A DNA stretch of 4,533 bases from a virus (Duplodnaviria; Heunggongvirae; Uroviricota; Caudoviricetes): the IMG/VR virus record IMGVR_UViG_2711768021_000006; one strand, written 5' to 3'. Positions 1 to 4,533 of this stretch are shown piece after piece; position 1 is the stretch's first letter, and the number at the start of each line of letters is the position of its first letter. The position numbers were made by a program, and so were the translations under genes. Under the pieces are notes generated by a model. That model did not search any database. It saw only the letters and a program-made list of their open reading frames with translations, and was not told the DNA's origin.

Positions 1-60
1 CTCTCGTCTGGGGAATATCTCCCCGGCAGCCTTCAGGGAAAAATATCATCAGATGGCTGC

Positions 61-414
61 TTAAAAAAAGAACAAATGGTAGTGTCCGCTATTGCCAGTA
101 CACCTCAATTGCTCTGCGGCTTCGCTCAGAGCTGGCGTATGTTCCCGGCCTACTGATTCACACAGGTAATCAACGAAACCGGACACCAGTTTTCGTTCGC
201 GAGGCGTGATCGCCCCACCGACCGGAGTCCAGTAATCGAAACCCAGTTGCAGGAGTTTGAAAAAACGCTTGTGGAATGCGTAGTTACACACACGCTTAAA
301 GTCTGCGTGTATCCACTCACCTATTTTGATTTGATGCAGAAAATCGCAACTCTCCGGCGTCGCCGGGAGAAGTAATCCGGAAGAGGTTTGTTTGACCAGT
401 TGTATATGTGCCAT
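61..414 (-). CDS. Hypothetical protein, 117 aa (MAHIQLVKQTSSG...), second gene of a two-gene cassette
   Basis: Open frame on the minus strand with stop at 61-63. ATG at 412-414 is preceded by GGAGA 6 nt upstream. The ORF track extends to a TTG at 456 that overlaps the upstream stop (TTGA), but the ATG with a Shine-Dalgarno is the more credible start. Codon usage looks coding. No family recognised. Confidence 0.55.
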   Translation of the reverse strand: MAHIQLVKQTSSGLLLPATPESCDFLHQIKIGEWIHADFKRVCNYAFHKRFFKLLQLGFDYWTPVGGAITPRERKLVSGFVDYLCESVGREHTPALSEAAEQLRCTGNSGHYHLFFF

Positions 415-821: not shown

Positions 822-849
822 ATTCTATCTGCGAAGGTGCGCGAATCAA
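822..849 (-). promoter_or_regulatory. Sigma70-like promoter (minus strand): -35 TTGATT (844-849), 16-nt spacer, -10 TAGAAT (822-827)
   Basis: Read on the minus strand: TTGATT-cgcgcaccttcgcaga-TAGAAT-CGACTCAC. Lies immediately downstream of a terminator and about 80 nt upstream of the ATG at 740. Confidence 0.45.
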
Positions 850-860
850 ATTCACCGGAA

Positions 861-914
861 ATAAACAACAAAAAACCCGCCGAAACGCTGAGAGATCACA
901 GCGATGGGCGGGTT
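861..914 (-). terminator. Rho-independent terminator (minus strand)
   Basis: Minus-strand RNA: AACCCGCC-cat-CGCTG-tgatctct-CAGCG-tttc-GGCGGGTT followed by TTTTTTGTTGTTTAT. Outer stem 874-881/907-914 with a nested inner stem and a U-run. The plus-strand orientation has no T-run, so it is unidirectional. Confidence 0.65.
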
Positions 915-953
915 AAGTGCGGGTGCGTTGAGGATGCCTGACACATCAGAGGT

Positions 954-981
954 GGGCGGGGATGGGATCAGCTCCCCGCCC
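954..981. repeat. Perfect GC-rich inverted repeat (9-bp stem GGGCGGGGA / TCCCCGCCC, 10-nt loop)
   Basis: Arms at 954-962 and 973-981. No adjacent T-run on either strand. Lies between the terminator and the 405-nt N-run. Confidence 0.4.
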
Positions 982-1447
982 GGTCACTCTTACTTCCTGG
1001 ATTCGTAGTCTANNNNNNNNNNNNNNNNNNNNNNNNNNNNNNNNNNNNNNNNNNNNNNNNNNNNNNNNNNNNNNNNNNNNNNNNNNNNNNNNNNNNNNNN
1101 NNNNNNNNNNNNNNNNNNNNNNNNNNNNNNNNNNNNNNNNNNNNNNNNNNNNNNNNNNNNNNNNNNNNNNNNNNNNNNNNNNNNNNNNNNNNNNNNNNNN
1201 NNNNNNNNNNNNNNNNNNNNNNNNNNNNNNNNNNNNNNNNNNNNNNNNNNNNNNNNNNNNNNNNNNNNNNNNNNNNNNNNNNNNNNNNNNNNNNNNNNNN
1301 NNNNNNNNNNNNNNNNNNNNNNNNNNNNNNNNNNNNNNNNNNNNNNNNNNNNNNNNNNNNNNNNNNNNNNNNNNNNNNNNNNNNNNNNNNNNNNNNNNNN
1401 NNNNNNNNNNNNNNNNNTGAAGCAGATAGCCTCAAGCACCCGCAGTC

Positions 1448-1477
1448 ATTCTACTTACCTCGCCAATATGAAATCAA
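1448..1477 (-). promoter_or_regulatory. Sigma70-like promoter (minus strand): -35 TTGATT (1472-1477), 18-nt spacer, -10 TAGAAT (1448-1453)
   Basis: Minus strand: TTGATT-tcatattggcgaggtaag-TAGAAT-GACTGCGG. Same hexamers and GACT-downstream context as the element at 822-849. Fires into the N-run at 1013-1417. Confidence 0.4.
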
Positions 1478-3183: not shown

Positions 3184-3745
3184 CTACTTAACAACCCTCG
3201 AATGGCTAACATTCGGACGCCAGCTCTCCCAGTTAAAATTCACCCAGCGCCCGCCGTTCATNNNNNNNNNNNNNNNNNNNNNNNNNNNNNNNNNNNNNNN
3301 NNNNNNNNNNNNNNNNNNNNNNNNNNNNNNNNNNNNNNNNNNNNNNNNNNNNNNNNNNNNNNNNNNNNNNNNNNNNNNNNNNGATAGCTGCCGCTAAGTG
3401 ATTCTTCCCGGTACCAGGTTTTCCGCTGAACGCAAAATTTGTACACCCGGTCATCAGTTCATCGGCGATGGATTTCGCCTGGCTTAACGCGTATCGCTGG
3501 CCGTCGTTCTGCACCTGGTAATTCGCAAACGAGCATTTACGGTGCAACGGCTGGATGCCTGAGCGATTCAGAATTTTTTCCACCCGCAACTGGCGATTCA
3601 GGCGGTTGATCTCCTCGCTACGTTTCTGGCCTTCAGCAAGTTGCCACTCGCGCCACTCCGCTACCGTTCTGAATGGGGCGGTTACATGTGGCGGGGTCAG
3701 TCGGCGGATGCGTTCCAGAACGCCGCCTGTCGCAATATTTTTCAT
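3184..3745 (-). CDS. DnaC-like replicative helicase loader (prophage paralogue), interrupted by assembly gap 3262-3382
   Basis: N-terminal 121 aa (MKNIATGGVLERIRRL...NRSGIQPLHRKCSFANYQ...FSGKPGTGKNHLAAAI) aligns by eye with E. coli DnaC, including the Walker A motif. After the N-run, a different frame (codons from 3261 down to stop TAG at 3184-3186) gives GGRWVNFNWESWRPNVSHSRVVK, matching the DnaC C-terminus (..LWVIFNWDSYRSRVTGKEY). About 100 residues are unaccounted for, so the 121-nt N-run under-represents the true sequence. Confidence 0.8.
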
Positions 3746-4120: not shown

Positions 4121-4230
4121 GGTAACGCTTTTTGATCCGTTTGTGTAACGCTGGCAGCGTTACCTTTTCGTTTCAGTTCGCGTATTTTTGTTACTCGCTC
4201 GTTTGTAACCGCCCGTTTTTTTTAGAGCTT
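4119..4230. repeat. Iteron-like cluster of GTAAC/GTTAC motifs with dyad symmetry plus T-rich tracts; candidate replication origin inside the initiator gene
   Basis: GTAAC at 4122, 4145 and 4205; GTTAC at 4159 and 4190. Perfect inverted repeat GTAACGCTG-g-CAGCGTTAC at 4145-4163. T-rich runs at 4129-4133, 4165-4173, 4185-4189 and 4216-4223. A related dyad GTAACGC-cgcga-GCGTTAC lies at 4354-4372. Confidence 0.45.
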
Positions 4231-4428
4231 TTTCCGTTATGACGTTCAAAGTTAGGTAGAGAAAGCCCTCCGTCATTTTCGACCAGCCATCCAACCTGAA
4301 TTAACGCATCAGCAAAACCAGACATAAAAGTGATGCGATCTATTGCACTTTTTGTAACGCCGCGAGCGTTACAATCTGCATTACCGTCTATCATTTGTTG
4401 ATCCGCCCATGCCCAGAAGCGAATAACC

Positions 4429-4533
4429 TGAGGTAGCCTGAGTTTAACGGACACTCCTTCCTGAAATAGAATGGCATCAGAAGGAGCTAATAATGAGCAG
4501 AAAAACCCAACGTTACTCTAAAGAGTTCAAAGC
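4429..4533 (+). mobile_element. Left end of an IS3-family insertion sequence (IS600-like), running off the window
   Basis: Sequence from 4429 begins TGAGGTAGCCTGAG..., and IS3-family ends typically start TGA. The orfA start follows about 64 nt later. The N-terminal peptide MSRKTQRYSKEFK matches my recollection of IS600 OrfA. The right end is not in the window, so the boundary is approximate. Confidence 0.55.
4493..4533 (+). CDS. IS3-family transposase OrfA (IS600-like), 5' partial at window edge
   Basis: AGGAG at 4481-4485 followed by ATG at 4493. Translation MSRKTQRYSKEFK... continues beyond the window. Confidence 0.55.
   Translation, partial: MSRKTQRYSKEFK

What the first reader, a model, noticed from the sequence alone, without database searches (positions are those of the whole stretch)
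861..1477. Discrete transcription unit hidden in the 405-nt N-run, bracketed by a promoter-like element and a terminator
On the minus strand a TTGATT-N18-TAGAAT element at 1448-1477 fires into the N-run about 25 nt downstream. On the far side sit a perfect GC hairpin (954-981) and a strong rho-independent terminator (861-914). The implied transcript is at least 530 nt if the N-run length is real, and could be a small gene, a toxin-antitoxin locus, a tRNA cluster or an sRNA, or the gap may mark an unassembled repeat such as an IS copy.
Basis: partly seen in the sequence, partly recalled or inferred. Interest (0 to 1): 0.5.

Follow-up and report, generated by a model that had tools for sequence, protein, structure and literature searches.

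The report
Masked hok/sok toxin-antitoxin locus

Summary
The N-run (1013-1417), the minus-strand TTGATT-N18-TAGAAT site (1448-1477), the 9-bp GC hairpin (954-981) and the terminator (866-914) are all present.

An IMG/VR contig (L018) matches the window at all 4,007 non-N bases. The match includes two IS600 junctions, a 10-nt deletion and a T8 run. In L018 the first N-run is replaced by 279 nt, not 405.

Those 279 nt plus the visible flanks form one hok/sok type I toxin-antitoxin locus:
- Rfam RF01794 scores 117 bits (gathering score 59), and model position 1 falls at window 1441.
- The 51-aa Hok toxin hits Pfam HOK_GEF at 81 bits and is 50/51 identical to HokW of phage 933W.
- An in-frame 70-codon mok is present.
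- An antisense Sok gene is present.
- The mRNA 5' end (1430-1441) pairs with a 3' fold-back element (921-933) at -21.5 kcal/mol.

The transcript is about 446 nt, not 530 or more. No tRNA and no IS lies in the gap.

RefSeq annotates the identical locus as hokD. The 933W/Sp5 homologue hokW-sokW has been characterised experimentally. The finding is already known and of low interest.

The parts
1448..1477 (-). hok mRNA promoter: -35 TTGATT (1472-1477), 18-nt spacer, -10 TAGAAT (1448-1453)
   Evidence: Found by the scan. The -10 is conserved in all 10 aligned hokD/hokW loci. The -35 depends on context: here a 10-nt deletion relative to L006/L007 brings TTGATT to -35 distance.
1418..1441 (-). Visible first 24 nt of the hok mRNA (GGGUGCUUGAGGCUAUCUGCUUCA). 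Nt 1-12 (window 1441-1430) are the tac element that pairs with fbi.
   Evidence: Position 1 of Rfam RF01794 maps to window 1441. Duplex with 921-933 is -21.5 kcal/mol; 5 of 1000 shuffles are as good.
1013..1417 (-). N-run of 405 N standing for 279 real nt. The hidden stretch holds the rest of the hok leader (mRNA nt 25-170, with ucb, mok SD GAGG at nt 102-105 and mok AUG at nt 114) and hok codons 1-44. On the opposite (+) strand it holds the Sok antisense gene (about 71 nt, complementary to mRNA nt 51-121) with its promoter TTGCCT-17-TAACCT.
   Evidence: L018 is identical to the window at all 4,007 non-N bases and has 279 nt here; L001, L020 and L022 carry the same 279 nt. Rfam 117 bits. Pfam HOK_GEF 81 bits. 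sokW is annotated in 933W at the homologous place. Sok alignment.
990..1012 (-). Visible 3' end of the hok and mok reading frame: ...(V)DYESRK, with stop TAA at 990-992
   Evidence: RefSeq annotates hokD at the homologous place in L001.
954..981 (-). 9-bp GC hairpin 9 nt after the hok stop (mRNA nt 335-362). Inferred to be the protective 3' stem-loop of the processed (truncated) hok mRNA.
   Evidence: Fold -20.9 kcal/mol, z -3.6. A hairpin is present at this position in all aligned relatives, with changed stem sequence. The role is inferred from the R1 model (PMC9841398).
920..934 (-). fbi (fold-back inhibitory) element UCCUCAACGCACCCG, mRNA nt 382-396, pairing with the mRNA 5' end
   Evidence: The MFE of the full mRNA pairs nt 1-12 with nt 383-395. 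The duplex test and its conservation at nt 352-402 in 15 of 16 loci are; the pairing changes on both sides between the prophage type (GGGUGC/GCACCC) and the plasmid type (GGCGC/GCGCC). The window itself was tested.
866..914 (-). Intrinsic terminator of the hok mRNA: compound hairpin 874-914 and U6 run 870-875. It carries a roughly 24-nt insertion in the loop compared with the CCCGC-TTCG-GCGGG terminator of most relatives.
   Evidence: Fold -22.8 kcal/mol, z -6.25. Alignment.

Best explanation
The N-run hides the core of a hok/sok-type (hokW/hokD subtype) type I toxin-antitoxin cassette. It sits in a lambdoid prophage remnant, between the QueH gene and the nin-region genes.

Shown from sequence:
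- A promoter at 1448-1477 starts an mRNA of about 446 nt at about 1441. The mRNA carries a structured leader, a 70-codon mok frame, the 51-codon hok toxin frame, a GC hairpin, the fbi element and a terminator.
- On the other strand, inside the gap, lies the roughly 71-nt Sok antisense gene, which covers the mok ribosome-binding site and start codon.

Inferred from the R1 hok/sok and Sp5 hokW-sokW literature:
- The full-length mRNA is locked by pairing of its 5' end (tac) with fbi, so it is neither translated nor bound by Sok.
- Slow 3' trimming back towards the GC hairpin removes fbi. The leader then refolds and mok, and with it hok, becomes translatable.
- As long as the unstable Sok RNA is made, it pairs with the leader and RNase III destroys the duplex.
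- If Sok supply stops, through loss of the element or prophage induction, the stable mRNA pool yields Hok. Hok inserts into the inner membrane and kills or lyses the cell.
For: Gap closure in silico. L018 (IMGVR_UViG_2671180821_000008) equals the window at 1012+1844+1151 non-N bases with 0 mismatches. The match includes two IS600 junctions, a 10-nt deletion and a T8 run. L018 holds 279 nt in place of the N-run. The same 279 nt occur in L001, L020 and L022.

Family evidence. Rfam RF01794 matches end to end at 117 bits (gathering score 59), E 1e-26, starting at window 1441. All 15 relatives fetched also hit it. Pfam HOK_GEF scores 81.1 bits (cut-off 22), and PHROG 251 'MokW-like host killing' gives 1e-32. 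The toxin is 50/51 identical to HokW of 933W. RefSeq annotates the same locus as hokD, and 933W annotates mokW, hokW and sokW at the homologous site at 91% DNA identity.

Structure. The full mRNA folds at -191.5 kcal/mol, z -8.8. The 5'-3' end pairing is -21.5 kcal/mol and lies at the same distance in 15 of 16 loci, with two-sided changes between subfamilies. Predicted Sok folds into a hairpin with a U-tail at -30.2 kcal/mol. The Sok promoter hexamers are identical to those of 933W.

Experimental work on homologues. HokW is toxic, sokW counteracts it with RNase III and Hfq, and sokW is a 71-nt antisense RNA (PMC8621323). The tac/fbi/ucb model is described in PMC9841398.
Against: - The central 279 nt are not readable in the window itself. 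They are inferred from an identical sibling contig.
- Expression and toxicity of this copy are untested, and it lies in a decayed prophage fragment bounded by IS600 copies.
- MFE folding of 3'-truncated mRNA (365-375 nt) did not reproduce the expected release of the mok SD. It showed only loss of the end pairing and a local 5' hairpin.
- The simple consensus scan does not flag the Sok promoter, whose -10 is TAACCT.
- The hok promoter is no better than chance as a bare consensus match.
Confidence: 0.93

Rival explanations
1. The hok/sok core is present but is an inactive relic. It would be a decayed copy in a dead prophage fragment that no longer makes toxin or antisense RNA in a regulated way, as with several chromosomal hok loci of E. 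coli K-12 (from my own knowledge of Pedersen and Gerdes 1999; not checked here).
For: The surrounding prophage is clearly degraded. The fragment is bounded by two direct IS600 copies. The DUF1367 gene is cut at about 108. The replication-initiator gene is cut at about 4428 and carries a 10-nt deletion and a +2 T frameshift. The -35 region and the terminator loop differ from other loci.
Against: Every defining element is intact and identical to loci in complete prophages: promoter -10, leader (full-length Rfam hit), mok, hok (1 aa from the experimentally toxic HokW), Sok region, fbi and terminator.
Confidence: 0.2
2. In the window's own source, the N-run is a true assembly gap holding something else: an IS element inserted into hok, or a longer variant of about 405 nt.
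For: The N-run is 126 nt longer than the 279 nt of relatives. The source lineage is rich in IS600, with three copies in 14.8 kb of L018. The hok core is multi-copy, which favours assembly breaks.
Against: Three independent contigs with the same IS600 junction have exactly 279 nt, and one of them is identical to the window at every readable base. The second N-run is also untrue in length, 121 N for 306 nt, so N-run length carries no information. No genome has these flanks 395-415 nt apart. Sampled E. coli spacings are 270-282 nt.
Confidence: 0.04
3. Promoter-like site and terminator belong to different units. For example, the terminator ends a QueH read-through transcript and the TTGATT/TAGAAT match is a chance match.
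For: The promoter match is at chance frequency. No terminator separates QueH (stop at 1499) from the hok promoter, so read-through from QueH into hok is possible.
Against: The conserved -10 lies 7 nt before the first nucleotide of the Rfam model. The first 12 nt after that point are complementary to fbi, which lies 50 nt before the terminator; this feature only makes sense if both lie on one RNA with that 5' end. The same unit occurs behind unrelated upstream genes in 933W, P1-like plasmids and F-type plasmids.
Confidence: 0.03

Closest known systems
hokW-sokW (with mokW) of Stx2 phages 933W / Sp5 (VT2-Sakai)
   Same: Same architecture and about 91% DNA identity over about 428 nt. The toxin is 50/51 identical. 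mok is in frame with hok and 70 codons long. Sok hairpin, Sok promoter hexamers, tac and fbi are identical. Both lie in a lambdoid prophage.
   Different: The 5' tail of Sok and the matching leader segment differ at several positions (CAAAGCAUGAAAUUGG against UUCAGCAUGGAUUGAG). The genomic neighbours differ: here it follows QueH and precedes the nin region, while in 933W it sits near the genome end beside a YgiW-like gene. This copy has an intrinsic terminator after fbi that the 933W copy lacks. The -35 differs.
hok/sok of plasmid R1 and F-type plasmids (hok, mok = DUF5431, Sok)
   Same: Same Rfam leader family at 93-109 bits. Same order of elements. The 5'-3' end pairing lies at the same distance, nt 378-402. 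Both carry a Hok/Gef toxin.
   Different: Only a stretch of about 47 nt is alignable by BLAST. The tac/fbi sequences differ, with compensating changes (GGCGCUU/AAGCGCC). In the plasmid loci mok is out of frame with hok. HokW, the close homologue, is reported as 44% identical to R1 Hok (PMC8621323). The plasmid loci serve post-segregational killing.
hokD (relF) of E. coli K-12 Qin prophage
   Same: RefSeq names this protein HokD (WP_014532198.1). From memory, the K-12 HokD sequence is nearly identical except at the C-terminus.
   Different: From my own knowledge, not tested here: K-12 hokD sits behind relBE and lacks the mok/sok leader. The present locus has the full leader, mok and Sok.

Membership tests
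hok/sok type I toxin-antitoxin | Small hydrophobic Hok/Gef toxin ORF (Pfam PF01848) | tested here: met
   The 51-aa ORF in L001/L018 scores 81.1 bits against a cut-off of 22. Only the last 7 codons (990-1012) are readable in the window itself.
hok/sok type I toxin-antitoxin | Conserved structured hok mRNA leader (Rfam RF01794, named 'sok') | tested here: met
   117 bits against a gathering score of 59, model 1-157 of 157, in L001, L018, L020 and L022. The window shows only the first 24 nt, so the window alone gives no hit.
hok/sok type I toxin-antitoxin | Overlapping upstream mok frame with its own SD, through which hok is translated | tested here: met
   GAGG lies at mRNA nt 102 and AUG at nt 114. 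The frame has 70 codons and ends at the hok stop, so it is in frame as in the annotated mokW of 933W. Translational coupling itself cannot be tested here.
hok/sok type I toxin-antitoxin | Cis-encoded antisense Sok RNA with its own promoter, complementary to the mok translation-initiation region | tested here: met
   The homologous 71-nt sokW is annotated in 933W. The aligned region has an invariant hairpin and U-tail, a predicted fold of -30.2 kcal/mol, and -35/-10 hexamers identical to 933W. Presence is shown by homology; expression is not testable with these tools. The consensus scan does not flag the promoter.
hok/sok type I toxin-antitoxin | Long-range tac-fbi pairing of the mRNA 5' end with a 3' element | tested here: met
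   The MFE pairs nt 1-12 with nt 383-395. The duplex is -21.5 kcal/mol against -14.8 +/- 2.3 for shuffles. It is conserved in 15 of 16 loci, with two-sided sequence change between subfamilies.
hok/sok type I toxin-antitoxin | 3' processing that removes fbi and refolds the leader to free the mok SD | tested here: inconclusive
   Folding of 365-375-nt truncations loses the end pairing, but the mok SD stays paired in the MFE structure. The processing itself needs experiment.
hok/sok type I toxin-antitoxin | Toxin kills and antisense RNA neutralises, in an RNase III-dependent way | not testable with these tools
   Shown for the 98%-identical HokW and for sokW by Takada et al. 2021 (PMC8621323). 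Not shown for this copy.
   ARAGORN finds none in L018, L020 or L022. Rfam finds no tRNA there. The four tRNAs of L001 lie more than 2 kb away, near the lysis genes.
   The flanks are 279 nt apart and that stretch is filled entirely by hok/sok sequence. IS600 copies lie at the window ends, not in the gap.

The most novel reading that the evidence does not exclude
This hok/sok allele might not be a passive passenger. It has its own Sok recognition tail, a -35 hexamer created by a 10-nt deletion and an enlarged terminator. It could be what keeps this IS600-bounded 4.4-kb prophage fragment (QueH, DnaC-like gene and others) in the genome, acting as an addiction or anti-phage module, with specificity separate from the other hok/sok copies in the same cell.
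Probability: 0.15. Interest if true: 0.25.

Novelty: already known. Interest (0 to 1): 0.08.

Why it matters
It matters little beyond correct annotation. The case shows that a masked or gapped stretch can be resolved from identical public contigs. It also shows that the flanking promoter, hairpin, fold-back element and terminator identify a hok mRNA even when its middle is missing. Hok/sok cassettes are common in lambdoid prophages: 4,472 of 5,426 complete E. coli genomes match this one. A near-identical homologue has been studied experimentally, so no open question is advanced.

Tried and rejected
- I scanned 185,579 species genomes for the two flanks 395-415 nt apart and found none. The 405-nt length is not real.
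- I searched for the window's IS600 junction. It was absent from genome contigs, metagenome contigs and complete E. coli genomes, where homology stops at the junction. It turned up in IMG/VR, which closed the gap.
- The tRNA-cluster and IS-in-gap readings are rejected.
- The built-in terminator scan missed the real terminator because of its loop limit, and the promoter scan missed the Sok promoter. I relied on folding and homology instead.
- MFE folding of truncated mRNAs did not reproduce the published open conformation. I treat this as a limit of MFE prediction, not as evidence against the family.
- Within the hokD/hokW subgroup, tac and fbi are almost invariant, so there is no covariation to count there. 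Covariation appears only against plasmid hok loci.
- L013 (E. albertii plasmid) is a truncated leader-only remnant without fbi.

Full report
**1. The observation**

The window has two N-runs: 1013-1417 (405 N) and 3262-3382 (121 N). Three features lie on the minus strand.

- TTGATT-18-TAGAAT sits at 1477-1448.
- A 9-bp perfect GC stem with a 10-nt loop sits at 981-954. It folds at -20.9 kcal/mol, z -3.6.
- A compound hairpin sits at 914-874, followed by U6 at 875-870. It folds at -22.8 kcal/mol, z -6.25.

The promoter match alone is no better than chance, with 4 sites found against 3.9 expected. The simple terminator scan missed the terminator because of its loop-size limit.

**2. Closing the gap in silico**

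The flanks are 99.9% identical to E. coli FDAARGOS_944 (L001): 904/905 and 1841/1844 bases. There the two flanks are 279 nt apart. RefSeq annotates hokD in that interval, between QueH and a DUF1367 gene.

Homology to L001 stops at both window ends, where IS600 ends begin. I searched public collections for the exact 40-mer across the right-hand junction.

- It is absent from the species-representative genomes, the metagenome contigs and the complete E. coli genomes.
- It is present in six IMG/VR contigs.
- One of these, L018 (IMGVR_UViG_2671180821_000008), equals the window at all 4,007 non-N positions with no mismatch. The match includes a 10-nt deletion, a T8 homopolymer and both IS600 junctions.

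In L018 the first N-run is replaced by 279 nt identical to L001. The second N-run is replaced by 306 nt of the ydaV (DnaC-like) gene. L020 and L022 also have 279 nt.

Across a spread of E. coli genomes the same flanks are 270-282 nt apart. No genome has them 395-415 nt apart. The N-run lengths therefore carry no information. Whether they are masks or scaffold gaps cannot be decided here.

**3. What is there**

With the 279 nt restored, the minus strand carries a complete hok/sok locus.

- Leader: Rfam RF01794 matches end to end at 117 bits (gathering score 59). This family is named 'sok' but models the hok mRNA leader on the toxin strand. Its first position falls at window 1441, 7 nt after the -10 hexamer.
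- Toxin: the 51-codon ORF (mRNA nt 171-326, stop at window 990-992) is a Hok/Gef toxin. It scores 81 bits on Pfam and matches PHROG 251 'MokW-like host killing'. It is 50/51 identical to HokW of phage 933W.
- mok: an SD (GAGG, nt 102) and an AUG (nt 114) open a 70-codon frame ending at the same stop. This is the in-frame mok arrangement annotated as mokW in 933W. Some relatives carry one extra T and have the classical out-of-frame mok.
- Sok: on the opposite strand, the segment homologous to the annotated 71-nt sokW covers mRNA nt 51-121. It has an invariant hairpin and U-tail and the same -35/-10 hexamers as 933W.
- 3' region: downstream of the stop come the GC hairpin (nt 335-362), the fbi element (nt 382-396, window 934-920) and the terminator. 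The transcript is about 446 nt.

**4. The two ends belong together**

The full RNA folds at -191.5 kcal/mol, z -8.8, with nt 1-12 paired to nt 383-395. In the window itself the readable 5' end pairs with 933-921 at -21.5 kcal/mol. Shuffled 5' ends give -14.8 +/- 2.3, and 5 of 1000 are as good.

The same pairing occurs at the same distance in 15 of 16 loci. The sequence changes on both sides between the prophage type (GGGUGC.UUGAGG / CCUCAA.GCACCC) and the F/R1-type plasmid loci (GGCGCUU / AAGCGCC). This is the tac-fbi fold-back that defines hok mRNAs (PMC9841398). It rules out the idea that promoter and terminator belong to unrelated units.

**5. Mechanism**

The anatomy above is shown directly by the sequence. 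The following steps are inferred from R1 hok/sok (PMC9841398 and the work it cites) and from Sp5 hokW-sokW (PMC8621323).

- The full-length mRNA is inert because of the end pairing.
- 3' trimming back towards the GC hairpin removes fbi and lets the leader refold.
- mok, and with it hok, then becomes translatable unless Sok pairs with the leader and RNase III cleaves the duplex.
- When the unstable Sok disappears, Hok is made and damages the inner membrane.

For hokW-sokW, Takada et al. showed toxicity and neutralisation that depends on RNase III and Hfq. They also showed loss of sokW after mitomycin C and a roughly two-fold aid to phage release.

My MFE folds of truncated RNAs did not reproduce the release of the mok SD. 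That step remains inferred.

**6. Comparison and novelty**

- Matches occur in 4,472 of 5,426 complete E. coli genomes.
- Matches occur in 110 phage records, including 933W, VT2-Sakai and P1-like plasmid prophages.
- Matches occur in 1,523 plasmids.

This copy has small peculiarities. A 10-nt deletion places TTGATT at -35. The terminator loop is enlarged. The Sok 5' tail differs from that of 933W. None of these changes the kind of system. The verdict is already known and of low interest.

**7.

The core interpretation, a discrete transcription unit that might be a toxin-antitoxin locus, a small gene or an sRNA, is supported. The tRNA-cluster and IS-in-gap options are rejected. The transcript is about 446 nt, not 530 or more.

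Noticed in passing
window 1-108 and 4428-4533: Both window ends are IS600 (IS3 family) ends in the same orientation: the right end at 1-108 and the left end at 4428-4533. The prophage fragment of about 4.4 kb is therefore bracketed by two direct IS600 copies. L018 holds two full copies and one partial copy within 14.8 kb. The DUF1367 gene is cut at about 108 and the replication-initiator (YdaU-like) gene at about 4428. The pattern is reminiscent of Shigella-like, IS-rich genomes.
   Followed up: yes
window 3262-3382: The second N-run (121 N) lies inside the DnaC-like ydaV gene, just after the Walker A motif (GKPGTGKNHLAAAI). It stands for 306 real nt in L001, L018 and L020. Neither N-run keeps the true length: 405 N stands for 279 nt and 121 N for 306 nt.
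   Followed up: yes
window ~4078 and 4216-4223: Relative to L001, the replication-initiator gene carries a 10-nt deletion between direct AGGGGGA repeats and a T8 run instead of T6. Both cause frameshifts. They are also present in L018, so they are real features of this lineage and not read errors in the window.
   Followed up: partly
window 822-849 (minus strand): A second promoter-like site with the same hexamers (TTGATT-16-TAGAAT) lies immediately downstream of the hok terminator and upstream of the 95-aa ORF at 453-740 (PHROG 340, unknown function).
   Followed up: no
window 874-914; alignment: The hok terminator of this lineage has about 24 extra nt forming an inner hairpin (CGCUG...CAGCG) in the loop. 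Most hokD/hokW loci have a simple CCCGC-UUCG-GCGGG terminator, and the 933W copy has no such terminator at all.
   Followed up: partly
window 1454-1477; L006/L007: Other QueH-linked hok loci have 10 more nt between TTGATT and TAGAAT, so TTGGCG serves as their -35. The deletion in this lineage creates a different -35 hexamer at 18-nt spacing and could alter hok transcription.
   Followed up: no
window 908-963; rows H60-H84: A 56-nt piece covering fbi and part of the GC hairpin matches an unannotated site in E. coli K-12-type genomes at 95-96% identity, without the rest of the locus. It may be a relic of a hok 3' end.
   Followed up: no
L003-L005 against L001/L002: A single extra T (AAAGGTCAAGG against AAAGGCAAGG) switches mok between out of frame and in frame with hok. 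In the in-frame form, Mok is an N-terminally extended Hok.
   Followed up: partly
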